Positions 22,552 to 50,693 of a DNA stretch of 64,000 nucleotides are shown one piece after another (position 1 is the stretch's first letter; the number at the start of each line of letters is the position of its first letter). The stretch covers positions 3,097-67,096 of the forward strand of contig CALFNG010000206.1 of the NCBI GenBank assembly GCA_937902985.1, written 5' to 3'. Source of the stretch: an uncultured Myxococcales bacterium. Its GTDB lineage: Bacteria > Myxococcota_A > Polyangia > Polyangiales > Polyangiaceae. A program made the position numbers and the translations under genes. The notes under the pieces are model-generated. The model did no database searches and was not told the origin of the DNA. It worked only from the letters and a program-made list of their open reading frames with translations.

Positions 22552-24279
22552 TCAGATGCCCCGACCGTAGTGGCGCTTGTAGCGGTTGATGAGCGCGTTC
22601 GTGGAGCCGTCGTGGGTCGTCACGACGCCCTTCGACGCCAGCTCCGGCTCGATCTTCTTGGCGAGCTGCTTGCCGAGCTCGACCCCCCACTGATCGAAGC
22701 TGAAGATCTGCCACACGATGCCCTGCACGAAGATCTTGTGCTCGTACATCGCGATGAGCATACCGAGCGTCTTCGGCGTGAGCTTGGTGAAGAGGATCGA
22801 CGTCGTGGGCCGGTTGCCGGGGAACGACTTGTGGGGCACGAGCTCGGCGACCCGCGGCGGCGGGAGCTTCTGCGCCTCGAGCTCCGCGCGCGCCTCATCG
22901 GGTGTCTTTCCGCGCATGAGCGCCTCGGTCTGCGCGAAGTAGTTCGCGAGGAGCACCTGGTGGTGACCGCTCCCGTCGGTCGCCGCCGGACTAGGCGCCG
23001 GACTAGGCGCCGGACTAGGCGCCGGACTAGGCGCCGGACTAGGCAAAGGGTTGTGCGTCTCGAGCGGCGCGAGGAAATCGCAAGGCACGAGTCGCGTGCC
23101 CTGGTGGAGCAGCTGGTAAAACGCGTGCTGACCGTTGGTGCCCGGCTCGCCCCAAACGATCGGCCCGGTCGTGTAGTCCTCGATGAAGAGGCCGGCGCGG
23201 TCGACGCGCTTGCCGTTGCTCTCCATGTCGCCTTGCTGAAAGTACGCCGCGAAGCGGCTCATGTACTGGTCGTAGGGCAGGATCGCGTGCGTCTGGGCGC
23301 CGAAGAAGTTCATGTACCAGACGCCGAGCATCCCCAGCACGACGGGCACGTTCGCTTCCATCGGGGCCGTACGAAAATGCTCGTCCATCGCGTGGCCGCC
23401 GGCGAGGAGTTCCTCGAAGCCGTCCATGCCGATGAGCAGCGCGATCGGCATGCCGATCGCGCTCCACAGCGAGTAGCGCCCGCCGACCCAGTCCCAGAAG
23501 CCGAACATGTTCTTCGGGTCGATGCCGAACTTCTTGACCTCCTCGGTGGCCGTCGAGACGGCGACGAAGTGCCGGGGTACGGCCGCTTCGCTCCCGAGCT
23601 TCTCGACCAGCCAGGCCCTGGCGCTCCGCGCGTTGAGGAGGGTCTCCTGCGTCGTGAACGTTTTGCTCTCCACGACGAAGAGCGTCTGTTCGGCCACGAC
23701 CTCCTTGAGCGCCTCGGCGAGGTGCGTCCCGTCGACGTTCGACACGAAGTGCGCGCGCATCGCCGGCTGCCAGTACGGCTTGAGTGCGAGACTGGCCATG
23801 GCCGGCCCGAGATCGCTGCCCCCTATGCCGATGTTCACGATGTCGGTGATCCGCTTGCCCGTGTGGCCCTTCCAGGCGCCGGAGCGCACCGACTCGGTGA
23901 ACTCACGCATCTTCGCGAGCACGCCGTTGACCTTGGGCATCACGTCGTTGCCGTCGACCACGATCGGGCGGTTCGACCGGTTGCGGAGCGCGACGTGGAG
24001 CACGGCGCGGTCTTCGGTGCGGTTGATCTTCTCGCCGGCGAACATGCGGTCGCGCCACTCGAAGACGCCGGCCTGGCGCGCGAGCCCGAAGAGGAGCTCG
24101 AGCGTCTCGCTCGTGACGCGGTTCTTCGAGTAGTCGACGAGGATGTCTTCGACCTCGAGCGAGAACCGGTCGAAGCGCGCGGCGTCGGCGGCGAACAGGT
24201 CGCGGACGTGAACGGACGTCATCGCGTCGCGGTGCGCGGCGAGGGCCCGCCAGGCCGGGGACTCGGTCAAAACGCTCAT
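22552..24279 (-). CDS. pgi: Glucose-6-phosphate isomerase
   Basis: Full-length PGI: [14 protein letters not shown]...[38 protein letters not shown]...[24 protein letters not shown] and DQWGVELGK. It contains an extra (SPAP)n segment. Confidence 0.9.
22981..23044 (-). repeat. 12-bp in-frame tandem repeat (GGACTAGGCGCC, ~5 copies) inside pgi, encoding [20 protein letters not shown]
   Basis: Read directly from the sequence at 22988-23044. It is inserted between the conserved THNPL and [14 protein letters not shown] blocks. Confidence 0.9.
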
Positions 24280-24435
24280 GGTGCCTCCGTGGCGGCGAGG
24301 ATAGCCCGCGTGCGCACCTCGTACAGGCACGCCGTTGCGATGGGGGCGCGATTCGCGCGGGCCATTGCCGGGCCGAGTTCCCCCCGAAATTCGTCCTCAG
24401 AGAGTAGCTCGGTCTAGAACTCGAGATCCAACACG

Positions 24436-26331
24436 ATGATCTGGCCCCGCGCTCTGGCTCCCTTCGCGGCCGCGCTCGCGTTCGTGGGAATTCTCGCGGG
24501 CGTCGGGGCTCTCGCGATCGTGGCGCCGGTCGTGGGGCCCGCGCTCGTTCAGGTCACGGGCCTCGCCCCCGCGGACGTCGAGCCCGGTGATCGCATCACC
24601 CTCGCGGGGCAGGGTTTCCCGGCCGGCAAGGAGGCGCGGGTCACGTTTCGAGGCACGCTCCATCGGCCGGGTGAGGCGACGGTTCGCGACGTCGAGATCG
24701 CCGCGACCGGCCTCGTCACGGGGCCGGAGCAGGTCGAGGTCGAGTTCCGGGAGGGGACACAGACGCTCTTCTGCGGCGCCGGCGATCGTGCCGTGCACAG
24801 CACCTTCGAAGGCGACGTCGAGGTCGCCTTCGCGGCCGCCGCGCCGGGGGCGGCGCCCGTCGCCGGGACACTCCGGCACGCGGTGCTCGACGTCCGTCCG
24901 AGCGCGAGCGTCGCCGACACTGCGCGCGAGCCCGAGGGCCGACGCGTGCTTGCCTTCCTCGGCCTCCACGTCGAGCCGCCCGCGCGACGCGGGATCGGTC
25001 TCATGGTCGAGGCGGTCGACCCGGGATCCCGTGCCGCCGCGTCGGGCGTCGTTGCCGGCGATGTCCTGACGACCTTCGACGGCGTGCGCGCCGCCGCCAT
25101 CGGCGATCTCGTGCCCGTCCCGGGAGAGCACGAAGCGACGATCGGCGTGCGAAGCGCAGGCGCGGTCACCGACGCCCCGCGGGCGATCGCCGTGGACGGC
25201 CTGGGCGGCGCGCCGCCCGCGGAGTTCCTGGGGGCGGCCCTGTTCATCGTGGGCGCCCTCTCGGTCCTGCTCTTCTCTGGCGCGACGCCGCCGTCGATGC
25301 TCGGCGCGGCCGTCCAGCGGGCGGCGGGCCGCCTGCGCGCGCGCGTCGAGCTCGCGAGCCCGGCGAATCGCTCGGCGGTGTCGGCCTGGGCGCGGGTCGG
25401 TCGCGCGATGCGCGCCGGGGTCCTTCGCGAGGCCCTGCCCGCCGCGTCGTCGTCGACCGTCGTCGACGCCGTGGGCGCTGCGCTCTTCGCGGTCCTCCCG
25501 TTCGGCCAGTACCTGGTCGCGGCCCGGCTCGACGTCGGGATCCTCTTCCTGGCGGCGACCACGGCGCTCGCCGTGGCGGCTGTCGCCGGCGCGCGCTCGG
25601 CGTGGGACGGCCTCCGCGGAGCCGCGCATGTGGCCTGGCAGCACGTGCCGGCGGCGGTGGCCGTGACGAGTGTCGTCCTGACGACCGGTTCGCTTCGCGT
25701 CCAGGAGATCGACCACGCCCAGGGCGGAGCGCCCTGGGACTGGCTAGCCTTCCGGAGTCCGGCCGCGCTGCTCGCGACGCTCCTCCTCCTCGGGTGTGCG
25801 CTCATCGAGCCCGACCTCGAGGCTGCCGCGTCCGGGGCCTCGGCGCTGGTCGAGGACGTGTCGCTTCTGCCCGCTCGGTCGCGCGGATCGTGGCTCGAAG
25901 CAGCTCGGCGCGCGCATCGCTTCGTGATCGCGGGGCTCGCGAGCGTCCTTTTCCTCGGCGGCTGGTCGTTGCCCGGGCTGTCGCCGGCGCAGCAAGATGG
26001 TCGCCTCGCACTCGAAGCTGCTGGTGCGGCGTGGCTCCTCGGCAAGACGGCAGCACTCGTGCTCGCGATCTCGGCGGTTCGCTGGACACTACCCCGGCGG
26101 CGTCTCGTCGAGAGCACGCGCACGACGACGCTCGCGCGGCTGCCCCTCGCTCTCGCGGCTCTCGCCCTGTCGGCGGCGTGGGTATGGTGGACTCCCCAGC
26201 GCGCGGCGCAGCTCCTGATGAGCGGCTCGTTGGTCGGGGCGACGATGCTGGTCGCGATCGCGGTCATCCAGCGTCTGCGGCACGACGTCCTGTCCGCCGG
26301 AGGCGACGGCCATCTGAGCCCGTTCCTGTAG
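24436..26331 (+). CDS. NuoH/ND1-like polytopic membrane protein with an N-terminal TM anchor plus Ig/IPT-like and PDZ domains
   Basis: N-terminal TM helix, then VEPGDRITLAGQGFPAGKEARVTFRG (IPT-like), then PDZ-like GIGLMVEAVDPGSRAAASGVVAGDVLTTFDGVRAAAIGDL. About 8 TM helices follow, whose pattern (LDVGILFLAATTALAV...GSLRVQEIDHAQGGAPWDWLAFRSPAALL..LLLLGCALIEPDLEA...FLGGWSLPG) tracks complex-I subunit H by eye. Confidence 0.55.
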   Translation: MIWPRALAPFAAALAFVGILAGVGALAIVAPVVGPALVQVTGLAPADVEPGDRITLAGQGFPAGKEARVTFRGTLHRPGEATVRDVEIAATGLVTGPEQVEVEFREGTQTLFCGAGDRAVHSTFEGDVEVAFAAAAPGAAPVAGTLRHAVLDVRPSASVADTAREPEGRRVLAFLGLHVEPPARRGIGLMVEAVDPGSRAAASGVVAGDVLTTFDGVRAAAIGDLVPVPGEHEATIGVRSAGAVTDAPRAIAVDGLGGAPPAEFLGAALFIVGALSVLLFSGATPPSMLGAAVQRAAGRLRARVELASPANRSAVSAWARVGRAMRAGVLREALPAASSSTVVDAVGAALFAVLPFGQYLVAARLDVGILFLAATTALAVAAVAGARSAWDGLRGAAHVAWQHVPAAVAVTSVVLTTGSLRVQEIDHAQGGAPWDWLAFRSPAALLATLLLLGCALIEPDLEAAASGASALVEDVSLLPARSRGSWLEAARRAHRFVIAGLASVLFLGGWSLPGLSPAQQDGRLALEAAGAAWLLGKTAALVLAISAVRWTLPRRRLVESTRTTTLARLPLALAALALSAAWVWWTPQRAAQLLMSGSLVGATMLVAIAVIQRLRHDVLSAGGDGHLSPFL

Positions 26332-26340
26332 AGCCTGGCA

Positions 26341-27780
26341 GTGCTGGTAAACTCCGAAGCGCCGATGTCGGATCCGCTCCAGCGCGTCGTTTCGCGGACC
26401 CTCTGGCTCGTCGTCGCGCCGCCCTTCGCCGCGTTCGTCTGGCAGCTCGTGCGCGGTCTCCGGGGTGCGGGCGGGGCGTACGACCCATGGCCGCGTCGCC
26501 TCGGCGTGGGCTCGATCCTTTCGGCGTCCGCGGCGCTCCTCGGCCATGAGTTCGCGCTCGCGCGGGCTCCCAGAGGGGCGGGCGGCCTCCTGGAGCCCGC
26601 GGTCGGCGGCGCTCGCCTCGGCGCGCTCGACGTCGGATTCGGGCTCGCGTTCGACCGCCTATCGGTGTGTGCGTGCACGCTCGCCTGCGTGGTCGCGCTC
26701 GCCGCCGCGGCGAACCTGGGCACGCGCCGCGCCTCGCCGGAGGTCGATCCTCGACCGTGGAAGTCGTGGGCCTGGCTCGAGCTCTCGCTCTCGGGAGGTC
26801 TCCTCTCGTTTCTCGCGGGCGGTCTGGCGACCGCTTGGCTCGGTTGGACGCTCGTCGGGGCCTCGGCCGCGTGGCTTGCCGGATGGTCGGACACGAAGGC
26901 TGGCGCCCTCCGCGCGACGCGCGTCGCGCTCGCGATCTTCGCGATGCTCGCCGGAGACTCGCTGGTGTCGGGGACGAACCCGGGCTCGTGGGACGCGGCG
27001 ACGGGGCGTGGCCTCGACGCATACGTCGCCTCGCTCGCTCTCGCCGCCTTCCTCGCGGCGGCCGCGTCGATGAGCGCATCGGCGCCGCAGCCGCGGACCG
27101 CCCCGGCGCTCGCAGCGTTCGACGCCGGCGCGACGACGGGGCTGCTCGGCCCCTTCTTGCTTTTGCGCGAGGCCTCCCTCGTTCCTCGGTTACCCCACGG
27201 AGCGGCCGTGGTCACGGTCACCGGTGCGGCATTGGTGGTCCTCGCGGCGCGCCGGGCTCGGGCTGCGCCGCCAGGGCTGCCGCGCTGGGTCGCCGGCGTG
27301 GGCGGCGCTCCCGCAGGCCTTGTCCTCGTCGCGCTCGGCGTCGACGGGCCCCAGGGCGGCGCGCTGGTCTTCGTATCGGCGGGGATCGTGGCCGCGCTAC
27401 TCCTTGGTATCGCGGGCGCCGCGACGCCCGGAGCGGCGCCCGCTCCAGCCTCGGCCCGCTCGCCGCGGCCGAGCGTCGAGCGCGCGCTCCTCGGCCACGC
27501 GCCGGAGGCCGGGGCCACGCTGCTGATGGCCTTCGAGCGCTGGGTCGTCGATTCGCTCGCCGGCTCCGTCGGCGTCGTCGTTCACGCGCTCGCGTGGGCC
27601 CTCGTTCAGTTCGACGCCCAGGTCGCCGGCGCGCCCGCCAACGCGCTCGCCGGACGCACCGTCCGCCTCGGTCGTCGCCTCGAGCCGTTCGTCGGCGGCT
27701 CGCTGGCGAGGGTCGTCTGGGTGCTCGTCGGCACCGCGGTCCTTGCGACGCTGCTCAGCGCGCTCTGGCCGGTGCGCTGA
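26341..27780 (+). CDS. NuoL-like antiporter-type membrane subunit, degenerate
   Basis: LDVGFGLAFDRLSVCACTLACVV aligns with the NuoL block F.LVLDGLSL. LGWTLVGASAAWLAGW aligns with LGWEGVGLCSYLLIGF, and PRTAPALAAFDAGATTGLLGPFLL aligns with [21 protein letters not shown]. The C-terminal ERWVVDSLAGSVG...FDAQVAGAPANALAG resembles the lateral-helix region. The start is GTG 26341 or ATG 26365. Confidence 0.55.
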   Translation: MLVNSEAPMSDPLQRVVSRTLWLVVAPPFAAFVWQLVRGLRGAGGAYDPWPRRLGVGSILSASAALLGHEFALARAPRGAGGLLEPAVGGARLGALDVGFGLAFDRLSVCACTLACVVALAAAANLGTRRASPEVDPRPWKSWAWLELSLSGGLLSFLAGGLATAWLGWTLVGASAAWLAGWSDTKAGALRATRVALAIFAMLAGDSLVSGTNPGSWDAATGRGLDAYVASLALAAFLAAAASMSASAPQPRTAPALAAFDAGATTGLLGPFLLLREASLVPRLPHGAAVVTVTGAALVVLAARRARAAPPGLPRWVAGVGGAPAGLVLVALGVDGPQGGALVFVSAGIVAALLLGIAGAATPGAAPAPASARSPRPSVERALLGHAPEAGATLLMAFERWVVDSLAGSVGVVVHALAWALVQFDAQVAGAPANALAGRTVRLGRRLEPFVGGSLARVVWVLVGTAVLATLLSALWPVR

Positions 27781-27784
27781 CGTC

Positions 27785-29908
27785 ATGTCTTCGCAGATGT
27801 CCTCGCGCTGGCGCATGCCCCCGTTCTGCAGGCGTCTGATCGCGCTCCTCGCGCTCGTCGCCATCTGCCTGGTCTCGGTCGCTCCCCTGTGCCCTGGCTT
27901 CTCCGGTCTGGCTCGGGCAGGCACCGCGCCGCCCGCGCGCGGGCGCATCCTCCTCACGTTGCCCGACGGCACCCGGGGGCCGCTCGAGCTCCGGCCGTCC
28001 TGGCGGGAGCCGGGCGCGCCGGTCGGATGGGTCGGCGAACTCTCTGTCGTGAACCTGGGCTCCGAGCCGCTCACGGTGTCGCGGGTCGCGATTCGGGGCG
28101 ACGAAGACGACGTCCGCTCCCCCCCGCACGTTGCGGTTCGATTCAAGGAAGGCGCCCCGACGAACGCGACGCTGGCGCCCGGGGCATCCAAGACCCTCGT
28201 CGTCTCCTTCACGCCGGAGAACCCGCGTGTCACGCAGGCTTTCGGTCACGTGATCGTGACGTCGACCGACGAGCAAGCCGGCGAGGTGGCCGTGGGGTTC
28301 CGCGCGCAACTGCCGACGGGCCTCGGCTGGGCAGGGGAGCATGCGCTGACGCTCCTCGTCGCGTTGCCGCTCGCGGTCGCCTTGTTCGCGGGCGGAATGC
28401 GTGCCGCGGGGCGCCCCGACGATGGCGTCGTGCGCAGGGCCTCGATCGCGGTCGCCGGGGTCGAGTTGCTGCTGGCGCTCTGGGCTTACTGGCGGTTCGC
28501 TCCGGGCGTCGGGCGCGGCGACGGCGACGATGGGTTTCAGCTCGTCGAGCGCTCCGTCTGGGTGCGGTCGCTCGGCGCCGAGTGGTACGTGGGGGTCGAC
28601 GGCACCAGCATCGTCCTGATCCTGCTCGCGGCCGCGGTGGGCCTCGTCGCGCTCCTGGTCGCGGGCGAGACACGCCGGACCGACGCCTTCTACGCCGCGC
28701 TGGCGCTCCTCTCGTCGGGCATCGTCGGGGTGCTCGTGGCGCTCGACGCCGTCCTCTTCGTCGGGGCGTGGACGACCGTGCTCGTCGCGTCCGTCGTTCT
28801 CGTCGGGGGCTGGGGCGGCGCGCACCGCCACCGGGCCGCGGCGAAGCTCGGCGCGCTCGGCGCGTTCGGCGCGGCGGCGCTCCTCGTGTCGATCGTGGCG
28901 CTCTCGGGCGCGTCGGGCCGGACGTTCCTCGTCGACGGCACGCCGGTGACGCACACGATGGCGTTCCCGGAGTTCGCACGGACGTCGTTCTCGGCGAGCC
29001 CGCCGATCCTCGGCGTTCCGCTGGTCGAAGCGGCCTGGATCCTGCTGTTCATCGCGGCCGCGGCGGCGGCGCCCGTCGTCCCGCTGCACGGATGGCTCTC
29101 CGACGCGCTCGAAGAAGGGCCGGCGAGCGCTGCGATCGTCCTCGGCGGCGTCGTCGTGGCGCTCGGACCGTACCTCCTCGTCCGGGTCGGCCTGGGCGCG
29201 TTGCCCGAAGGCGCGCACTGGGCGGGCTCGTCGATGGCCGCGCTCGGCGGCCTGGGGGCCGCGTGGGGCGGCCTGGGGGCCATGGCCCAGCGCGATCTGC
29301 GCCGCTTCGTGGCCTACACGATCGTCGCGAACGCCGGGCTCGCCCTCTACGCCCTCGGCTCGCTCACCACGCAAGGGATCGCCGGCGCGACGCTGGCGCT
29401 ATGGTCGCACGGGCTCGCGGCAGCCATCCTCCTTGCGGTCGCCAACGCCCTCGAGCGTCGCGTGGGCACGTGCGACGTCGTGCGTGCCCAGGGTCTCGCG
29501 AGCGACGCGCCGGTGCTCGCCGTGCTCCTGGCCGTGGGGCTCGCTCTCTCGCTCGGGATCCCCGGGCTGGTCGGGTCGTGGGCCCTCGTTCTCGTCCTCG
29601 TGGGCGGTTTCGCGCCGCATCCGCTCGTCGCGCTATGGATGGCCGCGGCGATCGTGGTCTCCGCCGCCGCGCACGCGCGCGTCGCGCGCCTCTTGCTGTT
29701 CGAAGCGGTCGAGCCCGGGTGGCGGCGGAGCCGGCAACTCGAGGCATTCGGGGGTCGGCTGCCCGACGCGACCTCGTTCGAGATGGCGGCCCTCGTTCCG
29801 CTCGCGGCCCTCGCGGTGGGCCTCGGGTTCTGGCCGGCGCCGCTATTGACGCCCATGGAGTCTGCGGCGCGCGATGCCAGCGCCGCCGTCGAGCCGCCTA
29901 CTCCTTGA
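27785..29908 (+). CDS. NuoM-like antiporter-type membrane subunit, degenerate, with an N-terminal signal/TM and an Ig-like (DUF1573/ASH-like) domain
   Basis: The N-domain reads GELSVVNLGSEPLTVSRVAI...ATLAPGASKTLVVSFTPE. Then EWYVGVDGTSIVLILL, DAVLFVGAWTTVLV, WGGAHRHRAAAKL, PVVPLHGWLSDALEEGPASAAIVLGGVVVALGPYLLVR, QRDLRRFVAYTIVANAGL and WSHGLAAAILL track NuoM blocks by eye. The start is ATG 27785, just after the upstream stop. Confidence 0.55.
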   Translation: MSSQMSSRWRMPPFCRRLIALLALVAICLVSVAPLCPGFSGLARAGTAPPARGRILLTLPDGTRGPLELRPSWREPGAPVGWVGELSVVNLGSEPLTVSRVAIRGDEDDVRSPPHVAVRFKEGAPTNATLAPGASKTLVVSFTPENPRVTQAFGHVIVTSTDEQAGEVAVGFRAQLPTGLGWAGEHALTLLVALPLAVALFAGGMRAAGRPDDGVVRRASIAVAGVELLLALWAYWRFAPGVGRGDGDDGFQLVERSVWVRSLGAEWYVGVDGTSIVLILLAAAVGLVALLVAGETRRTDAFYAALALLSSGIVGVLVALDAVLFVGAWTTVLVASVVLVGGWGGAHRHRAAAKLGALGAFGAAALLVSIVALSGASGRTFLVDGTPVTHTMAFPEFARTSFSASPPILGVPLVEAAWILLFIAAAAAAPVVPLHGWLSDALEEGPASAAIVLGGVVVALGPYLLVRVGLGALPEGAHWAGSSMAALGGLGAAWGGLGAMAQRDLRRFVAYTIVANAGLALYALGSLTTQGIAGATLALWSHGLAAAILLAVANALERRVGTCDVVRAQGLASDAPVLAVLLAVGLALSLGIPGLVGSWALVLVLVGGFAPHPLVALWMAAAIVVSAAAHARVARLLLFEAVEPGWRRSRQLEAFGGRLPDATSFEMAALVPLAALAVGLGFWPAPLLTPMESAARDASAAVEPPTP

Positions 29909-30794
29909 GCGCTTCGGCGCCGCCGACGATCTCCATCAGCTCCTTCGTGATTCCCGCCTGACGCGCGCGGTTGTACTCGAGCGTGAGGCGCGCGATCATG
30001 TCCTTCGCGTTGCGGGTCGCCGCGTCCATCGCGGTCATCTGCGCTCCGAAGAAGCTCGCCTGGCTCTCGAGCAGCGCTCGATAGATGGTGATCTCGATGT
30101 ACATCGGCACGAGCCGTTCCAGCAGCGCCGGCTGATTGGGCTCGTAGATGAAATCGCTCTGAGGCGACGCGCCCTCGGCGGGCTGCGCGCTCACGGGCAC
30201 GAGCGGCAGGAGACGATCGACCACGACCTTCTGGGTGATCGCGCTCTTGAACTCGTTGAAGACGAGGTAGACGGAGTCGAACTCGCCCTTCTGGAAGTGC
30301 GACGCGACCCACCCGGAGACGAGGCGTGCCTTCTCAAGGTCGAGCCCGTCGTAGATACGAGGAAAGTCTTGCAAGACCTTGCCGCCGCGGCGCCCGAGGT
30401 ACTCGCGCCCTTTGCGACCCATCGTCGCGAAGGACACGCCGACGTTTCCGCCCTCCTTTTCGCGCCAGAAGCGCTCGGTGGCCTTGTTGATGTTCGTGTT
30501 CAACGCGCCGCAGAGCCCGCGGTCGGCGGTGAAGACCAGGAAGAGCGTCTTGTTCTCGGGCCGCTTGGCGAGCAGGGGATGCGCCGGCTCGTCTTGCGAC
30601 TCGCCGGCCGCCGCCATGGTGCGCGAGACCGACTGCAGCACCTCGCCCGTCTTCACGGCGTACGGGCGCATCGCGACGATTCGCTGCTGCGCGCGCGTCA
30701 GGCGCGCCCCGGCGACCATCTTCATGGCGCGGGTGATCTTCTGCGTCGCCTTCGTGCTGACGATGCGCTTCCGGATCCCCTTGAGCGACGGCAT
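29898..30794 (-). CDS. atpG: F1 ATP synthase gamma subunit
   Basis: MPSLKGIRKRIVSTKATQKITRAMKMVAGARL...ITKELMEIVGGAEALKE*. The start is ATG 30794, 4 nt after the atpA stop. Confidence 0.9.
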   Translation of the reverse strand: MPSLKGIRKRIVSTKATQKITRAMKMVAGARLTRAQQRIVAMRPYAVKTGEVLQSVSRTMAAAGESQDEPAHPLLAKRPENKTLFLVFTADRGLCGALNTNINKATERFWREKEGGNVGVSFATMGRKGREYLGRRGGKVLQDFPRIYDGLDLEKARLVSGWVASHFQKGEFDSVYLVFNEFKSAITQKVVVDRLLPLVPVSAQPAEGASPQSDFIYEPNQPALLERLVPMYIEITIYRALLESQASFFGAQMTAMDAATRNAKDMIARLTLEYNRARQAGITKELMEIVGGAEALKE

Positions 30795-30798
30795 GTCT

Positions 30799-32463
30799 TT
30801 ACTTCTTTCCGTCGGCCGACGAGCCGAACGACCCCGCGAACTCGTCGAGCGCCTTCTTGAGGGTCGCCTCGGTGTCCGCGTCGAGGACCTTCTTGGTCCG
30901 GATGGTCTCGTAGATCGCGGGGTACTTCTTCTCGATGAAGTCGTGGACACCACGCTCGTAAGCGGCGATCTGGGAGATGGCGAGGCGGTCGATGTAGCCG
31001 CGCGTGCCGGCGTAGATGCTGACGATCTGCTTCTCGACGGAGAGCGGAACGTATTGCCCCTGCTTGAGCAGCTCGACGAGGCGCGCGCCGCGCTCGAGCT
31101 GGTTGCGGGTGACCTGGTCGAGATCGCTGGCGAACTGCGCGAAAGCCGCCATCTCGCGGTACTGCGCGAGCTCGAGCTTCAGCTTGCCGGCGTAGGCCTT
31201 CATCGCCTTGATCTGTGCGCTCCCGCCCACCCGGCTGACGCTGATGCCGACGTTGATGGCCGGTCGCACGCCCGAGAAAAAGAGGTCCGTCTCGAGGAAG
31301 ATCTGACCGTCGGTGATCGAGATGACGTTCGTCGGGATGTACGCGCTGACGTCGCCGGCTTGCGTCTCGATGATCGGCAGCGCCGTCAGCGAGCCGCCCG
31401 AGCGCGGGTTGCGCACGATGTGGAAGCCGTCGCCCTTCTCTTTGAGCTCTTCCTCGGCGCGGTGCTTGCCGAGCTCGCCCTTGTGCACCTTCGCGTCGCC
31501 ACGCTTGTCGAAGTCGGTGACGTCTTTCTTGGTGACCGCGAACTCGTCGGCCATCTTCGCCGCGCGCTCGAGGAGGCGCGAGTGGATGTAGAAGACGTCG
31601 CCCGGATACGCCTCGCGGCCCGGCGGGCGACGGAGCAGGAGCGAGAGCTGGCGGTACGCGACCGCCTGCTTCGAGAGATCGTCGTAGATGCAGAGCGCGT
31701 GACGGCCGCTGTCGCGGAAGTACTCCGCCATCGTGACGCCGGAGTACGGGGCGATGAACTGGAGCGGCGCCATCTCGCTCGCGCCGGACACGACGACCGT
31801 CGTGTATTCCATGGCGCCGTACTGGGTGAGCTTGTCGACCACGCTCGCCACGGTCGACTGCTTCTGACCGATGGCGATGTAGAAGCAGTAAACGCCCTGC
31901 CCCTTCTGGTTGATGATCGTGTCGAGGGCGACCGCCGTCTTGCCGGTCTGGCGGTCGCCGATGATGAGCTCGCGCTGGCCGCGGCCGATCGGGACCATGG
32001 CGTCGATGGCTTTGATGCCGGTCTGGAGCGGCTCCTTGACGGGCTGGCGTGCAAGGATGCCCGGGGCCTTGAGCTCGACGCGGCGGCGGTGCGGCGTCTC
32101 GATCGGGCCCTTGCCGTCGATCGGTTGCCCGAGCGCGTTCACAACGCGCCCGACGAGCGCCTCGCCCACGGGGACGTCGAGGATGCGGCCGGTGCGCTTG
32201 ACGACCGCGCCTTCCTTGACGTTCGTGACTTCGCCGAAGCAGGCGGCGCCGACGTTGTCGGCCTCGAGGTTGAGCACGAGGCCCATCAGGTTGCCGGGAA
32301 ACTCGAGGAGCTCGCCCGCCATCGCGCCCTCGAGCCCGTAGATGCGCGCGATTCCGTCGCCCACGCTGAGGACCGTGCCCGTCTCGGTCGTGAGCGCGGC
32401 CTTCTCGTAGTTCTGGATCTGGGTCTTGATGATCGCGGAGATTTCTTCGGCGCGGAGCTGCAT
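30799..32463 (-). CDS. atpA: F1 ATP synthase alpha subunit
   Basis: GDRQTGKT Walker [36 protein letters not shown] and [25 protein letters not shown]. Confidence 0.95.
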
Positions 32464-32501
32464 CGGCGTTTCCTTCTATGAACCTGGATCGGAGAGAGAG
32501 C

Positions 32502-32537
32502 GCAAGCCAGGCAAGCCAGGCAAGCCAGGCAAGCCAG
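32502..32537. repeat. 9-bp tandem repeat (GCAAGCCAG x4) in the atpH-atpA intercistronic region
   Basis: Read directly. It is preceded on the mRNA strand by an imperfect hairpin (GGGAAGGTCGCG...CGCGCCTTTCCC) at roughly 32538-32570. Confidence 0.9.
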
Positions 32538-32574
32538 GGAAAGGCGCGGCGGAGGCGCGACCTTCCCTTTTTCG

Positions 32575-33123
32575 TCACGCTCCCGTGGGCATGAGCGCGT
32601 CGCGGAGCGACTGGAGGCGCGTACGGAGGCTTCCGTCGAGGATGCGGTTGCCGATCCGGGTAACGACGCCCGCGATGAGCATCGGATCCGTGCGGCGCTC
32701 GACCACCACGCGCTTGCCCGTCATCTTCTCGAGCTGAGCCTCGAGCCGCGCGTAGTACGTGTCGGAGAGCGGGGCCGCGGTCGTCACCTCTGCGCGGAGG
32801 AGACCCTTCCGCGCGTCGGCCAGCTCGCGCAGGGTCTGCGCCAGGTAAGGCAAGGAGCGGGCACGGCGCCGATCGACCAGGAGGAGCACCGTGTGTCGCG
32901 TCGTCGAGCTGGCCCCGATGCGCTCGGCGACGTCGTTGATGACCGCCTTCTTGGCGGCGTGGGCAACGAGCGGATTCTCGATGACGTTGCGAAGCTCGGG
33001 GCTCGTCTCCCAGGCGGAGGCGAAGGCGGCCATCTCGTCGACGATCCCGTCGAGCTGTCCGAGCTCGACCCCGATCTCGAGGACGGCCTTCGCGTATCGG
33101 CGCGCTACGATGGAAATGCTCAT
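32575..33123 (-). CDS. atpH: F1 ATP synthase delta (OSCP) subunit
   Basis: 182 aa, VARRYAKAVLEI...ENP......K......I. The position between the b and alpha subunit genes fits, and its start has an ATGA overlap with the upstream stop. Confidence 0.85.
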   Translation of the reverse strand: MSISIVARRYAKAVLEIGVELGQLDGIVDEMAAFASAWETSPELRNVIENPLVAHAAKKAVINDVAERIGASSTTRHTVLLLVDRRRARSLPYLAQTLRELADARKGLLRAEVTTAAPLSDTYYARLEAQLEKMTGKRVVVERRTDPMLIAGVVTRIGNRILDGSLRTRLQSLRDALMPTGA

Positions 33124-33884
33124 GGCGGGCTCCCGCTGCCGGATTCCGTGGGGGGAACGGCGCTGCGCTGCTGCGCGAGCGACGGCGTGCGATCTCGGTC
33201 GGCGCGGCCGCCCAGGTCGGCGAGGTATTCCTCGGCCAGGCGTTCCTGATCGGCGGGGGTGACTCGCTTCTTCAGCAGGTCTTCGGCTGCGAGCACCGCG
33301 GCTTCGACCGTGTCGCGCCAGAGCTCACCGCGGATCTGCTTCAGCTCTTGCTCGACGAGGAACTCGGCGTCCTTGCGCATGCGCTCGGCCTTGGCCTCGG
33401 CCTCGGCCACGATGCGCTCGCTCTCGGCTTCGCCCGCCCGCACCAGCGATTCGCGCGCGGCCCGGAGCTCGTCTTCGAGCTTCTCGAGCTTGTGCTGGTA
33501 AGTCTTCGCGCGCTCTTCCGCCTCGTGCTTCATGCGCTGCGCTTCTTCGATCTCCTTCGAGATCGTGTCCCGCCTCGCCTGGAGGCCGGCGGCGATCGGC
33601 TTCTTGCCCAGGAGGTAGTAGCCGGCCGCGAGGATGCCGAAGTTGATCAGCATCGCGATGTAGGGCGGCGTCTCTCCGCCGAAGACGGTCCAGTTGAACG
33701 GCGCCGGGCCTTCGCCCTCGCCCGCCGGTTTCTCGCTCTCGTTCGCTGCCGCCGCGGCGGCTCCCTTTTCCTCCTTCGGCTTCGGCTCGGTCTGCGCCCA
33801 GGCCCAGACCGACCACGACGTGACGACGACCATGCTGGCGAACGCGATCCGCCGCGCGACGGCCCCGAGCGGGCGGCGACTCAC
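33120..33884 (-). CDS. atpF: F0 ATP synthase subunit b with a long signal-like/low-complexity N-terminal extension
   Basis: A TM helix (PPYIAMLINFGILAAGYYLL) is followed by a long charged coiled coil (RRDTISKEIEEAQRMKHEAEERAK...). About 85 aa precede the TM helix. GTGA overlap with the upstream gene. Confidence 0.8.
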   Translation of the reverse strand: MSRRPLGAVARRIAFASMVVVTSWSVWAWAQTEPKPKEEKGAAAAAANESEKPAGEGEGPAPFNWTVFGGETPPYIAMLINFGILAAGYYLLGKKPIAAGLQARRDTISKEIEEAQRMKHEAEERAKTYQHKLEKLEDELRAARESLVRAGEAESERIVAEAEAKAERMRKDAEFLVEQELKQIRGELWRDTVEAAVLAAEDLLKKRVTPADQERLAEEYLADLGGRADRDRTPSLAQQRSAVPPTESGSGSPP

Positions 33885-34366
33885 GACTGCACCTCTCGCC
33901 CGAGAACGCGACCCGCGAGATCGCGCGCGAGGGCGCCGCTCTGAGCCTTCAACGTGGCGCGGACGCGCTCGGCCTCGGCCAGAGCAGACTTCTTGCCGTC
34001 TTCGAGGGTTTGAGCGGCCGCGGCACGCACGGTGCCGAGGATTTCCTGTTCCTTGCGAACCGCCTCGGCGCGGATCTTTTCACGCTCGGCGTTGGCCGTC
34101 GCCCGGGCCTTGGCCATCTCCGTCTCGTACTTCGCGAGCGCGGATGCCGACCGTTCGTCGATCTTGCGGGCCTGCATCTTGGCCCCGTCGATGCGCCGCT
34201 CACGCTCCTCGAAGAGCTTGAGCATCGGATCGAAGAGGAGCGGTTTGAGGACCAGCGTCAGCGCGGCGAACAGCACGAACTGAACGAGGAACGTGGCGTC
34301 GAAGTCGACCGATATGGCCTGGGGTGCCGCTGCCAGGAGGCCGTCGTCGAGGGAGGCGAGAAGCAT
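33881..34366 (-). CDS. F0 ATP synthase subunit b' (second b-type subunit)
   Basis: FLVQFVLFAALTLVLKPLLFDPMLKLFEERERRIDG... is followed by a coiled coil. It is the first gene of the local atp cluster. Confidence 0.75.
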   Translation of the reverse strand: MLLASLDDGLLAAAPQAISVDFDATFLVQFVLFAALTLVLKPLLFDPMLKLFEERERRIDGAKMQARKIDERSASALAKYETEMAKARATANAEREKIRAEAVRKEQEILGTVRAAAAQTLEDGKKSALAEAERVRATLKAQSGALARDLAGRVLGREVQS

Positions 34367-35299: not shown

Positions 35300-36268
35300 T
35301 TACGGCGATTCGGTGCGACTGCCCCAGATCACGACCTGATTGCGGCCTCCGTCTTTCGCCTTGTAGAGCGCCTGATCGGCCTGACGCAGGAGCTCCTCCA
35401 CGGTCACGAGCCCCTCGTGTTCCGCCGCTGCGACGCCAATCGATATGGTGACTTCCGGTAGGCCAGCGGAAGTCTGGGAGCGCCCGGCGACGGCACGTCG
35501 AAGGCGCTCCCCCACGATGCGCGCGTCGGCCGAGCGGGTCTCCGGGAGGATGACCATGAACTCCTCACCCCCGTAGCGTCCGGCCATATCCGTCGTCCGG
35601 ACGGTCTCCATCAGGGTGGCCCCCACTTCGACCAGCACCCGGTCGCCCACCGGGTGCCCGAACGTGTCGTTGACCTTCTTGAAGTGATCCACGTCGAGCA
35701 TGAGACAGGCGAGAGGGTGCCGATAGCGCTTTGCCCGTGCGAACTCGAACGCCAGCCGCTCCGACAGAACCCGGCGGTTCGGAAGCTGGGTCAGCGCATC
35801 GATGGTGGCGAGCGCGTGCAGCCTGGCGTTTGCCGTCGCGAGCTCGTCAGCGAGCCTCTTGATGCGCAGCATCGACGAAACCCGAATCTGCAGTTCGAGG
35901 GCATTGACCGGCTTGGTCAAGAACTCGTCGGCCCCGGCAGCAAGGCCGCGCCGCTTCGACTCGAGATCCTCGAGGGCCGTGAGGAGGATGATCGGAACGA
36001 ACCTCCCCTCGCGCTTGAAGATCTGCGAAAGCTTGTAGCCGTCGACGTGCGGCATGAGGACGTCGAGCATGACGAGGTCCGGGTTCACGGACCGATAGAG
36101 CCGCAAGGCCTCGGAGAGGGAGGTGGCGGTGAAAGCAAGCGCCGCCCAGTCCTCCACGACACGGGAAAAATGCTTACACTGCAGGGGATCGTCGTCGATG
36201 ATCAGGATGCGAGCGCCGCGCAGCGACGCCTCCACCCACTCGCCCGGACGAATCGACATCAGCGCCAC
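35300..36268 (-). CDS. Response regulator-diguanylate cyclase (REC-GGDEF)
   Basis: REC: ILIIDDD...DLVMLDVLMPHVDGY...LTA. GGDEF: DALTQLPNRR...MLDVDHFKKVND.FGH.VGD.VL...GRYGGEEF...SIGVA...ADQALYKAKDGGRNQV. Confidence 0.85.
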   Translation of the reverse strand: MALMSIRPGEWVEASLRGARILIIDDDPLQCKHFSRVVEDWAALAFTATSLSEALRLYRSVNPDLVMLDVLMPHVDGYKLSQIFKREGRFVPIILLTALEDLESKRRGLAAGADEFLTKPVNALELQIRVSSMLRIKRLADELATANARLHALATIDALTQLPNRRVLSERLAFEFARAKRYRHPLACLMLDVDHFKKVNDTFGHPVGDRVLVEVGATLMETVRTTDMAGRYGGEEFMVILPETRSADARIVGERLRRAVAGRSQTSAGLPEVTISIGVAAAEHEGLVTVEELLRQADQALYKAKDGGRNQVVIWGSRTESP

Positions 36269-36368
36269 CCGGAGCGAAACGCGCTGGGCGTCAGACGGTC
36301 GCGTCGCCTTTGGCCGTACGCACAGGCTCCTCTTCCGACTGCTTCTCGCATCGTCAGCCCCCCGGTAT

Positions 36369-36404
36369 GACTCAAGCCGTGCGACTCAAGTGGTGTGACT
36401 CAAG
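36369..36404. promoter_or_regulatory. Three direct GACTCAAG repeats at an exact 14-bp period in the divergent REC-GGDEF / hybrid kinase promoter region
   Basis: gactcaag occurs at 36369, 36383 and 36397 (tatGACTCAAGccg tgcGACTCAAGtgg tgtGACTCAAGgcc). Confidence 0.45.
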
Positions 36405-36584
36405 GCCGCACGACATTCTTGCACGCTCCGTGTGCTTCGCCCATGCGCCGTTCGTGCCTCCATGACCGGTGGTGACTTGTGGTCAGGCAATTTGCACGGC
36501 CGCCATATTTTGTTGCGACCAAGCTTCGATGGCGCGAGACTACCGTGGGGGGGCTTGAAGAACGGCAGAGGGGCTCCCGTTGTC

Positions 36585-38246: not shown

Positions 38247-38276
38247 TCATGCGAGCGAACCTTCCAACGGAGTGTC

Positions 38277-44490: not shown

Positions 44491-44509
44491 GGCATATGGC
44501 TATGAAGGC

Positions 44510-45871: not shown

Positions 45872-45888
45872 GACCTTCTGCTGCCCAC

Positions 45889-50655: not shown

Positions 50656-50693
50656 TTGTAACTCCGGCCGGGTGCCCACCCTGCGTCATCAGA

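What the first reader, a model, noticed from the sequence alone, without database searches (positions are those of the whole stretch)
24436..29908. Stand-alone NuoH/NuoL/NuoM-like membrane trio with added PDZ and Ig-like domains and apparently substituted proton-pathway residues
**Composition.** Three co-directional, tightly packed genes (gaps of 9 and 4 nt) encode:
1. A complex-I subunit-H-like polytopic protein, preceded by a TM anchor, an IPT/Ig-like segment and a PDZ-like segment (GLMVEAVDPGSRAAASGVVAGDVLTTFDG).
2. A NuoL-like protein, including a lateral-helix-like C-terminus.
3. A NuoM-like protein, preceded by a signal/TM and an Ig-like domain (LSVVNLGSEPLTVSRVAI...LAPGASKTLVVSFTPE).

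No nuoA/B/C/D/E/F/G/I/J/K/N genes accompany them. They are flanked by pgi on one side and the atp operon on the other.

**Substitutions.** In my by-eye alignment the signature ionisable residues of antiporter-like subunits are replaced:

| Canonical block | This locus |
|---|---|
| GWEGVG | GWTLVG |
| fWE..LiP | AWTTVLV |
| FAVK.P..P.HtWLPdAH.eAPT | AAAAAPVVPLHGWLSDALEEGPAS |
| LLK.G.YG | VVALGPYL |
| QtDlKr..AYSSvsHmG | QRDLRRFVAYTIVANAG |
| ALIHAATMVTAG | AAFDAGATTGLLG |

**Interpretation.** A membrane-arm-only module that has lost its charge relay and gained periplasmic or cytoplasmic protein-binding domains is not a respiratory complex I. It looks like a repurposed scaffold or transducer of unknown function.
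Basis: partly seen in the sequence, partly recalled or inferred. Interest (0 to 1): 0.75.

Follow-up and report, generated by a model that had tools for sequence, protein, structure and literature searches.

The report
Dead complex I membrane-subunit trio
Three tightly packed genes encode non-pumping copies of complex I membrane subunits NuoH, NuoL and NuoM, which are exactly the three subunits that carry extra periplasmic domains in related myxobacteria, so this looks like a respiratory proton pump kept for some other, still unknown, job.

Summary
Window 24436-29908 (+) is a three-gene operon between pgi and atpG.

- **H' (g1):** Ig + PDZ + NuoH-like.
- **L' (g2):** NuoL-like. This shows only with a family profile (E 1.4e-13 against E. 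coli NuoL).
- **M' (g3):** Ig + NuoM-like.

The TM7 and TM8 lysines and the TM12 glutamate are absent in 115 M' relatives. H' lacks the quinone-site loop and the E-channel carboxylates.

The genes are not decaying: dN/dS is 0.15-0.33, there are hundreds of intact homologues, and natural L'-M' fusions exist.

The interpretation needs one correction. The PDZ and Ig domains were not gained on repurposing. Sorangium has a fully canonical Ig-PDZ-NuoH. One intact nuo operon (L080) encodes Ig-PDZ-NuoH, a NuoL with a PEGA-like insert, and Ig-NuoM, all with canonical residues. The trio is therefore the degenerate form of exactly the three decorated subunits, in operon order.

Within the families the periplasmic parts are the most conserved. 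My best reading is a non-pumping inner-membrane scaffold that displays these periplasmic domains.

I could not test whether the same genomes also hold a working complex I. I found no literature on this.

The parts
24331..24435 (+). Intergenic region between the divergent pgi and g1. It presumably holds the promoter.
   Evidence: 105 bp between the two start codons. The sigma-70 consensus scan found nothing, which is uninformative in a 70% GC genome.
24436..26331 (+). g1 = H': a degenerate Ig-PDZ-NuoH, 631 aa.
   Evidence: Pfam NADHdh E 2.3e-19. Collinear with Sorangium Ig-PDZ-NuoH at 35% identity, E 1e-105. 263 or more homologues. dN/dS 0.15. AlphaFold pLDDT 85. Foldseek top hits are NdhA/NuoH, TM-score about 0.5.
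24436..24537 (+). H' N-terminal signal or anchor helix (residues 1-34).
   Evidence: Helix 2-24 in the model. Most homologues have a lipobox-like Cys after it; the window copy does not.
24538..24900 (+). H' Ig-like beta-sandwich (residues 35-155), inferred periplasmic.
   Evidence: Strands 39-153 in the model. Mean pairwise identity in the H' family is 0.67; among the regions compared only the short C-tail (0.70) is higher. Shared with canonical Sorangium and L080 NuoH.
24964..25191 (+). H' PDZ-like domain (residues 177-252).
   Evidence: PDZ_6 E 3e-4, PDZ_2 E 0.01, both below cutoff. Above cutoff in Sorangium (E 3.5e-9) and in many homologues. The G188-L189-x-V191 loop is invariant or nearly so.
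25219..26292 (+). H' NuoH-like membrane domain (residues 262-619), nine predicted TM helices. The quinone-loop and E-channel motifs are replaced.
   Evidence: Alignment with Sorangium and Minicystis NuoH. The GPxGLLQxxADxxK loop is absent, the SYE Glu is His, and the AExxRxPFDLxEAESELV motif is degenerate. The segment that replaces the quinone loop is only 0.43 identical within the family.
26293..26331 (+). H' conserved C-terminal tail ...GHLSPFL plus the stop codon. Inferred cytoplasmic.
   Evidence: S628-P629-F630 are invariant in 16 sequences. HL[SND]P[FY][LI] is shared with canonical Sorangium and Minicystis NuoH. Identity 0.70.
26341..27780 (+). g2 = L': a truncated, degenerate NuoL, 479 aa. 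It lacks the roughly 150-aa beta-domain insert that most orthologues have.
   Evidence: Family profile against E. coli NuoL: E 1.4e-13, two stretches, NuoL residues 28-167 and 210-348. Most orthologues are 547-670 aa and carry the insert. dN/dS 0.33.
26848..26850 (+). L' Thr170, at the position of the NuoL TM5 Glu (GWEG becomes GWTL).
   Evidence: Family column: A9, T4, S2, G1, V1.
27070..27072 (+). L' Met244, at the position of NuoL TM7 Lys229 (GKSAQ).
   Evidence: Family column: M13, V2, L1, W1. There is no Asp at the D178 position in 16 of 17 sequences.
27493..27780 (+). L' C-terminus: lateral-helix-like segment (FERWVVDS...) plus a final TM helix.
   Evidence: The motif F[DE][KR]xVVD matches canonical NuoL HL/TM16 of L079. 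R400-W401-V402 are nearly invariant. The model of the natural L'-M' fusion has a 46-residue helix followed by a TM helix at this place.
27785..29908 (+). g3 = M': a degenerate Ig-NuoM, 707 aa.
   Evidence: Proton_antipo_M E 2.9e-36; TIGR01972 274.9 bits. M. smegmatis NuoM E 1.5e-39. dN/dS 0.23. The homologue model superposes on NuoM with TM-score 0.90-0.93 and rmsd 2.1-2.6 A.
27950..28318 (+). M' Ig-like domain (residues 56-178), inferred periplasmic.
   Evidence: Weak Pfam Ig hits. Beta-sandwich in the homologue model. Family identity 0.74, against 0.56-0.64 for TM segments. Homologous to the N-domain of canonical Ig-NuoM P0410 and of L080 NuoM.
28772..28774 (+). M' Thr330, at the NuoM TM5 Glu (E. 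coli E144).
   Evidence: Family column: Q64, E16, A12, V9, S7, T4.
29066..29068 (+). M' Ala428, at the NuoM TM7 Lys (E. coli K234).
   Evidence: Family column: A88 and no Lys. Canonical representatives have K.
29159..29161 (+). M' Ala459, at the NuoM TM8 Lys (E. coli K265).
   Evidence: Family column: A90, S8, G6, T5..., no Lys.
29330..29332 (+). M' Asn516, at the position of NuoM His322.
   Evidence: Family column: N49, S38, G12, T10, A5, H1.
29585..29587 (+). M' Leu601, at the NuoM TM12 Glu (E. coli E407).
   Evidence: Family column: P39, V20, L19, I13, A10, M4, no Glu.
22552..24330 (-). pgi, the divergent upstream neighbour. Conserved synteny; not part of the module.
   Evidence: Pfam PGI E 2.5e-233. 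Same arrangement in clade-a loci.
29898..30953 (-). atpG, the convergent downstream neighbour. Its 3' end overlaps the g3 stop by 11 bp. Conserved synteny.
   Evidence: Pfam ATP-synt E 4.4e-94. The same tail-to-tail arrangement is seen in L073 and clade-a loci; in L074 one HATPase_c gene lies between M' and atpG.

Best explanation
The three genes are one operon encoding catalytically dead derivatives (H', L', M') of the complex I membrane subunits NuoH, NuoL and NuoM.

In this branch of the myxobacteria (Polyangiaceae and relatives), real complex I carries add-on domains on exactly these three subunits: a lipoprotein-type signal plus Ig plus PDZ on NuoH, a PEGA-like beta-domain inserted in NuoL, and an Ig domain on NuoM. 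The trio keeps these three genes in operon order (H...L-M). The genes without add-on domains (nuoA-D, I, J, K, N) are absent from the locus.

**Shown.**
- The folds and the periplasm-facing elements are conserved and under purifying selection.
- The quinone-site loop, the E-channel carboxylates and the Lys/Glu/His relay are gone, and those positions vary freely.

**Inferred.**
- L' clamps M' with its retained lateral helix. The two are one polypeptide in about a dozen 50%-identity cluster representatives and in loci L019 and L022.
- H' joins them.
- The assembly does not translocate protons in the complex I manner.
- It acts as an inner-membrane scaffold. Its selected activity lies in the periplasmic Ig/PDZ array, which would bind the C-terminus of an unidentified envelope or periplasmic partner.
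- In relatives such as Sorangium this activity would be a side function of working complex I.
For: **Homology and loss of key residues.**. The residue roles come from PMC9271201.

**Not pseudogenes.**
- dN/dS is 0.15 (H'), 0.33 (L') and 0.23 (M'), against 0.05-0.18 for pgi and the atp genes.
- There are 263 and 298 intact homologues of H' and M'.
- About 90 clusters at 50% identity hold Ig-bearing degenerate M' proteins.

**The trio recurs as a unit.** It occurs in different genomic contexts. No NuoC, D, I or K homologue was found in the window or in about 30 such loci.

**L'-M' fusions.** Single ORFs of 1127-1493 aa occur in about a dozen 50%-identity cluster representatives and in loci L019 and L022.

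**A decorated, canonical ancestor type exists.**
- Sorangium and Minicystis have Ig-PDZ-NuoH.
- P0410 is an Ig-NuoM lying between nuoL and nuoN.
- L080 is a full operon in which all three decorated subunits are canonical.

**Periplasmic parts are the most conserved**.
- H': Ig 0.67, against 0.43 for the segment that replaces the quinone loop.
- M': Ig 0.74 and periplasmic loops 0.73-0.77, against 0.56-0.64 for TM segments.

**Structure models.**
- H' has a signal helix, an Ig domain, a PDZ domain and nine TM helices.
- The natural fusion shows an L' long helix plus a TM helix, then the Ig domain, then a NuoM fold with TM-score 0.9.

**Mutual exclusivity.** None of 71 genomes holds both H' and the canonical Ig-PDZ-NuoH.
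Against: - No partner or ligand for the PDZ or Ig domains was identified.
- The window's own L' has lost the beta-domain insert, as have L002 and L073. At least that periplasmic element is dispensable.
- The short C-terminal tail of H', inferred cytoplasmic, is as conserved as the Ig domain and is shared with canonical NuoH. This could mean H' still docks a cytoplasmic partner such as a peripheral arm.
- TM segments are still 56-64% identical within the families, so the membrane part is constrained too.
- Some basal family members keep part of the relay, for example P0407 (EKHESQHQ) and P0408 (QLHEKQHE).
- Assembly of H' with L'-M' was not modelled.
- The periplasmic location is inferred from signal or lipobox sequences and from the known topology of NuoH and NuoM. 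It was not measured.
Confidence: 0.5

Rival explanations
1. The trio still belongs to a complete but unusual complex I. The other subunits are encoded elsewhere, and H', L' and M' serve as its non-pumping or differently working membrane subunits.
For: - nuo genes are dispersed in myxobacteria: nuoEFJKLMN and nuoIHGDBA are separate clusters (PMC2330069).
- Canonical Sorangium nuoH stands alone, away from other nuo genes.
- H' keeps the C-terminal tail (inferred cytoplasmic) shared with canonical NuoH.
- No genome has both H' and the canonical Ig-PDZ-NuoH, as expected if H' occupies the NuoH slot.
Against: - H' lacks the TM1-2 quinone-site loop, the SYE glutamate and the TM5-6 loop carboxylates that every solved complex I has.
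- L' has lost TM12-15.
- The relay positions vary freely across the family, as expected without a pumping constraint.
- The trio travels as a unit without N, J, K or A in every context seen.
Confidence: 0.2
2. The trio is an active membrane device of a new kind. It could be an ion or substrate conduit, or a transducer driven by the proton-motive force that moves its periplasmic domains, using residues other than the canonical relay.
For: - Retained polar residues in M': the TM7 His is invariant, Glu444 and the TM11 His are mostly kept, and the TM6 Lys/Arg is invariant.
- The NuoM fold, with its broken helices, is preserved (TM-score 0.9).
- TM segments are under constraint.
- The organism is flagellated and has MotAB, so it relies on a proton-motive force.
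Against: - The retained residues are structural motifs also present in canonical NuoM.
- No newly conserved buried charge stands out in the family. The conserved polar residues lie in loops and in the Ig domain.
- The central-axis positions hold Ala, Leu, Pro or Val.
- There is no precedent.
Confidence: 0.15
3. The trio is a decaying remnant of a lost nuo operon with no present function.
For: - L' evolves fastest (dN/dS 0.33, 37-50% identity among relatives) and has suffered deletions.
- All catalytic signatures are gone.
Against: - Reading frames are intact in roughly 30 loci and in hundreds of metagenomic homologues, down to about 30% identity.
- dN/dS is well below 1.
- Domains and loops are strongly conserved.
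- Gene order and gene fusions are conserved.
Confidence: 0.03

Closest known systems
Respiratory complex I membrane arm: NuoH/ND1, NuoL/ND5, NuoM/ND4 (e.g. E. coli 3RKO/7P61, T. thermophilus 4HEA, M. smegmatis 8E9G)
   Same: All three proteins are homologous to these subunits. The NuoM fold is preserved (TM-score 0.9). The NuoH fold is recognisable. L' keeps a lateral-helix-like C-terminus.
   Different: There is no quinone-site loop and no E-channel carboxylates. The TM5 Glu / TM7 Lys pair, the central Lys or His and the TM12 Glu or Lys are all missing. L' lacks TM12-15. None of the tested nuo genes (NuoC, D, I, K) is found at the locus. Extra Ig/PDZ domains are present.
Periplasmically decorated complex I of Polyangiaceae-type myxobacteria: Sorangium/Minicystis Ig-PDZ-NuoH and the metagenomic operon L080. 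These are annotated simply as NuoH/L/M, and I found no paper describing the extensions.
   Same: They share the N-terminal signal, the Ig and PDZ domains and the HLxPFL tail on NuoH. NuoL has the same N-terminus and the same beta-domain insert. NuoM has the same Ig domain and the same periplasmic loops. The gene order H...L-M is the same.
   Different: Those proteins keep every canonical motif: NADHdh 377 bits, GWEG, GKSAQ, LIHAAT and EKHEKHHE. In L080 they sit in a full nuoC-D-H-I-K-L-M-N operon. The window's trio has lost all of these.
Antiporter-like subunits recruited for other tasks: cyanobacterial NdhF3/NdhD3 with CupA (NDH-1MS) and DabB with DabA (from my own knowledge of the field)
   Same: NuoL/M-type proteins used in a module with a job other than plain respiratory pumping. 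An L-M pair that can be exchanged as a unit.
   Different: Those keep the charge relay. They work with a cytoplasmic carbonic-anhydrase-like partner encoded next door, and NdhF3/D3 dock onto a core complex. Here the relay is gone, no such partner gene is adjacent, and a NuoH-like protein is included.
Mrp-type multisubunit cation/proton antiporter (MrpA/MrpD)
   Same: Stand-alone membrane complex built from NuoL/M-like subunits. Weak profile hits to MrpA/D.
   Different: Mrp has no NuoH homologue. It needs the small subunits MrpB, C, E, F and G, and it keeps the Lys/Glu relay. There is no room for small ORFs in the operon (gaps of 9 and 4 nt), and NuoM/NuoL models score far better than Mrp models.

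Membership tests
NuoH/ND1 (Pfam PF00146; NCBIfam NuoH equivalogs) | Profile match above the family threshold | tested here: inconclusive
   Pfam gives 70.3 bits against a cutoff of 27, but only profile positions 80-297 are matched. The best NCBIfam NuoH equivalog gives 49.5 bits against a cutoff of 305.
NuoH/ND1 | TM1-2 loop that lines the quinone cavity (WxERK...GPNxxGPxGLLQxxADxxK) | tested here: not met
   It is replaced by an unrelated, poorly conserved helical segment. The motif is present in Sorangium, Minicystis and L080 NuoH.
NuoH/ND1 | E-channel and TM5-6 loop carboxylates (SYE; AExxRxPFDLxEAESELVxGxxxEY) | tested here: not met
   The SYE Glu is His. The loop reads LIEPDLEAAASGASALVEDVS and is largely deleted in L068, L074 and L078.
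NuoH/ND1 | Multi-helix NuoH fold | tested here: met
   All top Foldseek hits of the AlphaFold model (pLDDT 85) are NdhA/NuoH/ND1, probability 1.0, TM-score about 0.5 normalised to the target.
NuoM/ND4 (PF00361, TIGR01972) | Profile match above the family threshold | tested here: met
   PF00361 gives 125.6 bits (cutoff 21.5). TIGR01972 gives 274.9 bits (cutoff 263.8). All equivalog models fall far below their cutoffs.
NuoM/ND4 | TM5 Glu / TM7 Lys pair, central TM8 Lys, connecting His, TM12 Glu (E. coli E144, K234, K265, H322, E407; PMC9271201) | tested here: not met
   The window reads T, A, A, N, L. Among 115 relatives none has the TM7 Lys, the TM8 Lys or the TM12 Glu. Canonical controls read EKHEKHHE.
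NuoM/ND4 | 14-TM antiporter fold | tested here: met
   The model of homologue P0363 (50% identical to g3's exact match P0121 in alignment A4) superposes on NuoM chains with TM-score 0.90-0.93 and rmsd 2.1-2.6 A. The window protein itself was not modelled.
NuoL/ND5 | Sequence or profile match | tested here: met
   The single sequence is sub-threshold (E 0.053 and 0.011). The 17-member family profile gives E 1.4e-13 against E. coli NuoL, and only NuoL/ND5/NdhF chains rank at the top. BLAST against the canonical L080 NuoL gives E 4e-23.
NuoL/ND5 | TM5 Glu (GWEG), TM6 Asp / TM7 Lys pair, TM8 His, TM12 Lys-Asp | tested here: not met
   The first three sites read T, no Asp, and M. The TM8 His position varies across the family, and 3 of 17 sequences have His there. 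The TM12 region is absent.
NuoL/ND5 | C-terminal lateral helix plus anchoring TM16 | tested here: met
   The F[DE][KR]xVVD motif and a final hydrophobic helix align with canonical NuoL of L079. The fusion model shows a 46-residue helix followed by a TM helix, at moderate pLDDT.
Respiratory complex I (NDH-1) as a system | Presence of the Q-module and the remaining membrane subunits (NuoA, B, C, D, I, J, K, N) | tested here: not met
   NuoC, D, I and K have no homologue in the 64-kb window, in the 10 kb beyond its right end, or within 10 kb in about 30 related loci. NuoA, B and J were not queried. NuoN gave hits only to M'. The rest of the genome could not be searched.
Mrp antiporter | Small subunits MrpB/C/E/F/G next to the MrpA/D-like genes | tested here: not met
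   There is no room for further ORFs in the operon (gaps of 9 and 4 nt). The neighbours are pgi and atpG.
DAB / NDH-1MS CO2-uptake modules | Adjacent DabA or CupA-type partner gene | tested here: not met
   No such gene is found in any context examined.
PDZ domain | Profile match and PDZ fold with a carboxylate-binding loop | tested here: inconclusive
   The window copy scores 20.9 bits against a cutoff of 27. Homologues are above the cutoff. The model has the expected strand/helix pattern at 177-252. The G-L-x-V loop is conserved. Ligand binding was not tested.

The most novel reading that the evidence does not exclude
A whole branch of soil myxobacteria has dismantled its periplasmically decorated complex I. 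It kept only the three subunits that carry periplasmic Ig/PDZ/beta domains, now dead as a pump, because those domains perform an envelope-facing function. That function could be tethering, or assembly of a partner structure. In relatives such as Sorangium it would be a hidden second job of working complex I.
Probability: 0.3. Interest if true: 0.85.

Novelty: new variant of a known kind. Interest (0 to 1): 0.7.

Why it matters
**A natural experiment on complex I.** Its membrane subunits are regarded as among the most constrained energy-converting proteins. Here a large, conserved family keeps the folds and the lateral-helix clamp but discards every residue thought to move protons or bind quinone. 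This shows that the scaffold can be selected for something other than pumping.

**An undescribed form of the working enzyme.** The work also exposes a complex I with Ig, PDZ and PEGA-like domains on its periplasmic face. It is present in cultivable Sorangium, so the role of these domains can be tested experimentally.

**A practical point for annotation.** These genes are currently labelled 'NADH-quinone oxidoreductase subunit H/M'. That label would wrongly credit the carriers with complex I subunits in metabolic reconstructions.

Tried and rejected
- **Pseudogene or relic.** Rejected on dN/dS and on family-wide intact frames.
- **By-eye register error.** Rejected.
- **Mrp, DAB or NDH-1MS type module.** Rejected. 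There are no small Mrp subunits and no DabA or CupA partner in any context.
- **Extra conserved partner genes inside the operon.** The insertions between H' and L' in L004 and L025 are unrelated to each other (L004 has an unknown protein and a Ser/Thr kinase). They are not partners.
- **The gene downstream of Sorangium nuoH as an L' homologue.** No similarity.
- **Walking off the window's ends.** The right side holds only flagellar genes. The left-end protein is not on record.
- **Structure prediction of L' with its orthologue alignment.** I used a natural L'-M' fusion instead.
- **Promoter and terminator scan.** Uninformative.
- **Literature.** Searches for PDZ-NuoH, degenerate antiporter-like subunits, or myxobacterial complex I extensions found nothing relevant. 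The supplement on myxobacterial nuo clusters is not held.
- **Functional link to ATP synthase.** The tail-to-tail synteny with atpG is conserved down to 41% identity (L074) but is absent in L068 and L076. I treat it as inherited gene order, not as evidence of function.

Full report
**1. What is there**

The window has about 68% GC. Codon-position GC marks three co-directional genes on the plus strand: 24436-26331 (631 aa), 26341-27780 (479 aa, GTG start) and 27785-29908 (707 aa). They are separated by 9 and 4 nt. Public gene calls on an identical soil-metagenome contig give the first two at the same lengths, and P0121 matches the third at 707 aa. Upstream and divergent is pgi (22552-24330, minus strand). 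Downstream and convergent is atpG, followed by atpA, atpH, atpF and atpF'. The g3 and atpG stop codons overlap by 11 bp. Pfam scans of the other candidate ORFs of at least ~200 aa in the window found no nuo domain, and tblastn with NuoC, D, I and K found nothing in the window. NuoA, B, E, F, G and J were not queried by tblastn.

**2. Identity of the three proteins**

- **g1 (here H').** It matches Pfam NADHdh at E 2.3e-19, but only over profile positions 80-297. It has a sub-threshold PDZ hit. An AlphaFold model built on 91 homologues (pLDDT 85) gives a signal helix, a beta-sandwich (39-153), a PDZ-like unit (177-252) and nine TM helices. Foldseek returns only NdhA/NuoH/ND1 chains.
- **g3 (M').** It matches Proton_antipo_M at E 2.9e-36 and passes the NDH_I_M subfamily cutoff.
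- **g2 (L').** Alone it is nearly unrecognisable (E 0.05 and 0.01). A profile of 17 orthologues taken from related loci hits E. coli NuoL at E 1.4e-13 in two stretches (NuoL residues 28-167 and 210-348). Only NuoL/ND5/NdhF chains rank at the top. Its C-terminus (FERWVVDS... plus a final hydrophobic helix) matches the lateral-helix and TM16 motif of a canonical NuoL.

**3. The substitutions are real and family-wide**

HMMER alignment of M' with M. smegmatis NuoM and two cyanobacterial NdhD chains gives the following.

| Position (E. coli numbering, PMC9271201) | Window residue |
|---|---|
| TM5 Glu (E144) | Thr330 |
| TM7 Lys (K234) | Ala428 |
| TM8 Lys (K265) | Ala459 |
| His322 | Asn516 |
| TM12 Glu (E407) | Leu601 |

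- In 115 family members none has the TM7 Lys, the TM8 Lys or the TM12 Glu. The residues at these positions vary widely: Q/E/A/V/S/T at TM5 and P/V/L/I/A/M at TM12.
- As a control, canonical NuoM representatives in one joint alignment all read EKHEKHHE at the eight key columns.
- In L', GWEG is GW(T/A), the GKSAQ Lys is Met, there is no Asp at the D178 position in 16 of 17 sequences, and TM12-15 are missing.
- H' aligns end to end with Sorangium NuoH. It lacks the GPxGLLQxxADxxK quinone-cavity loop, has His for the SYE Glu, and has a degenerate or deleted AExxRxPFDLxEAESELV loop.

**4. Not decay**

Comparing the window with a relative about 80% identical (L073) gives dN/dS of 0.15 (H'), 0.33 (L') and 0.23 (M'). 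The neighbours give 0.11 for pgi, 0.18 for atpG and 0.05 for atpA. H' has 263 or more homologues, all about 600-650 aa. M' has 298. An exhaustive search with M' found about 90 clusters at 50% identity of Ig-bearing proteins of 660-740 aa, nearly all lacking the relay. About a dozen of them are natural L'-M' fusions of 1127-1493 aa. Two further fusions occur in L019 and L022.

**5. Distribution and context**

A scan of one genome per species found 71 loci, all myxobacterial.

- About 25 loci (44-82% identity) share the arrangement pgi / H'-L'-M' / atpG.
- More divergent carriers have H' plus L' plus M', or H' plus fused L'M'. These are L068, L074, L076 and L078, whose M' proteins are 36-41% identical to g3. 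They sit in partly different surroundings.
- One basal lineage has only an L'-M' pair.
- tblastn with NuoC, D, I and K found no homologue within 10 kb of any of these loci.
- Insertions between H' and L' in two loci are unrelated to each other.

**6. The key comparison**

Sorangium, Minicystis, Byssovorax and many Polyangiaceae MAGs have a 640-670 aa NuoH. It has the same signal, Ig domain, PDZ domain, extra C-terminal helix and HLxPFL tail, but a fully canonical NuoH domain (Pfam 377 bits, NdhA 267 bits).

A canonical Ig-NuoM (P0410, EKHEKHHE) lies between nuoL and nuoN on a 69% GC contig.

One contig (L080, 70.6% GC) carries nuoC-D-H-I-(J)-K-L-M-N. In it:
- NuoH has the Ig-PDZ extension.
- NuoL has the same N-terminus (MPDxxG...TLWL) and the same roughly 150-aa beta-domain insert as most L' proteins, while keeping GWEG, GKSAQ and LIHAAT.
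- NuoM has the Ig domain and reads EKHEKHHE.

So the add-on domains came before the loss of function. H', L' and M' are the degenerate forms of exactly the three decorated subunits, in the same order as in the operon. The beta-domain insert is only weakly PEGA-like (E 0.012 in one orthologue). It has been deleted in the window's own L'.

**7. What is conserved**

Mean pairwise identities by region:

| Family | Region | Identity |
|---|---|---|
| H' | Ig domain | 0.67 |
| H' | C-terminal tail | 0.70 |
| H' | TM2-9 | 0.59 |
| H' | PDZ | 0.52 |
| H' | Segment replacing the quinone loop | 0.43 |
| M' | Ig domain | 0.74 |
| M' | The two periplasmic loops | 0.73-0.77 |
| M' | TM segments | 0.56-0.64 |

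Most H' homologues have a lipobox-like Cys after the signal helix. Together with the known outside-facing N-termini of NuoH and NuoM (my own knowledge), this places the Ig and PDZ domains in the periplasm. With nine TM helices the H' tail would be cytoplasmic. These placements are inferences.

The model of a natural L'-M' fusion (P0363, pLDDT 80, pTM 0.75) shows about eleven L' helices, a 46-residue helix, a TM helix, the Ig sandwich, and then a NuoM fold. That fold superposes on solved NuoM chains at TM-score 0.90-0.93.

**8. Interpretation**

My best reading is a non-pumping L'-M'(-H') inner-membrane scaffold. Its selected function would lie in the periplasmic Ig/PDZ array, a function that decorated, working complex I would also perform in relatives.

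- **Shown:** homology, loss of residues, purifying selection, unit conservation, and the decorated canonical ancestor type.
- **Inferred:** assembly, topology, lack of ion translocation, and the nature of the function.

The main rival is that the trio still sits in a complete but odd complex I whose other genes lie elsewhere. Dispersed nuo genes in myxobacteria support it, as do the shared H' tail and the fact that no genome of 71 has both H' and the canonical Ig-PDZ-NuoH. Against it are the missing quinone and E-channel elements and the free variation at the relay positions.

An NJ tree groups all degenerate M' proteins together, with partly canonical members at the base. Long-branch attraction could produce the same picture.

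**9. Limits**

Coexistence with a working complex I is therefore open.
- Attempts to settle this through contig-length matching failed.
- The window's own L' and M' were not modelled directly.
- No PDZ ligand was identified.
- Five literature searches and five papers opened gave nothing on these proteins.

Noticed in passing
L053:9893-11872 (Sorangium cellulosum So ce56); L043:9977-11947 (Minicystis rosea); L080:2579-11254: Working-type complex I in Polyangiaceae-like myxobacteria carries add-on domains: signal/lipobox + Ig + PDZ on NuoH, a roughly 150-aa PEGA-like insert in NuoL, and an Ig domain on NuoM. I found no description of this in the literature. In Sorangium the decorated nuoH stands alone, followed by an unknown 601-aa gene and a trypsin-like peptidase.
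   Followed up: partly
window 49279-63587 (minus strand), continuing in L081/L082: A complete flagellar gene cluster: fliD, flagellin, flhF, flhA, fliR, fliP, fliN, fliL and flgE, and beyond the window flgD, fliK, fliI, fliH, fliG, fliF, fliE, flgBC, flbD and motAB. The genome's relatives are labelled Polyangiaceae. To my knowledge cultured myxobacteria glide and lack flagella.
   Followed up: partly
window 42416-47499: Three glycosyltransferase-family-2 proteins with TPR tails and an FkbM-type methyltransferase lie next to the flagellar cluster. They may serve flagellin glycosylation.
   Followed up: no
window 29898-34366 (minus strand): The atp operon reads atpF'-atpF-atpH-atpA-atpG and then stops. 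atpD and atpC do not follow. The convergent trio occupies that place and overlaps the atpG stop by 11 bp. The same arrangement occurs in L073 and clade-a loci, and in L074 with one gene in between.
   Followed up: partly
L019:11762-15517; L022:11550-15299; P0361, P0363-P0365, P0395, P0404, P0408, P0413, P0420, P0451, P0455: L' and M' are fused into one polypeptide of 1127-1493 aa in these loci and cluster representatives. The final helix of L' replaces the signal peptide of M'.
   Followed up: yes
window 26341-27780 compared with L003, L006, L009, L014 and others: The window's L' (479 aa), and those of L002 and L073, lack the roughly 120-150 aa beta-domain insert found between TM6 and TM7 in most orthologues (547-670 aa).
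   Followed up: yes
window 35300-39428: A c-di-GMP signalling cluster: a response regulator with GGDEF (minus strand), a hybrid histidine kinase, and a response regulator with EAL.
   Followed up: no
window 14354-17163 (minus strand): An ice-binding-like protein (Pfam E 1e-52) lies next to an OmpA-family protein with thrombospondin type 3 repeats.
   Followed up: no
window 24001-30000: GC rises to 74% and AT skew falls to between -0.2 and -0.39 over the trio. The flanks are about 68% GC. This may reflect the Ala/Leu/Val/Gly-rich membrane proteins, not foreign origin.
   Followed up: no
locus without DNA (JGI 3300047160, 164.6-kb contig): A basal, partly canonical L'-M' pair (P0407, EKHESQHQ) has no adjacent H'. 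It is preceded by a small ORF with a faint FliJ hit, and relaxase/TraI genes lie 8 kb away.
   Followed up: no
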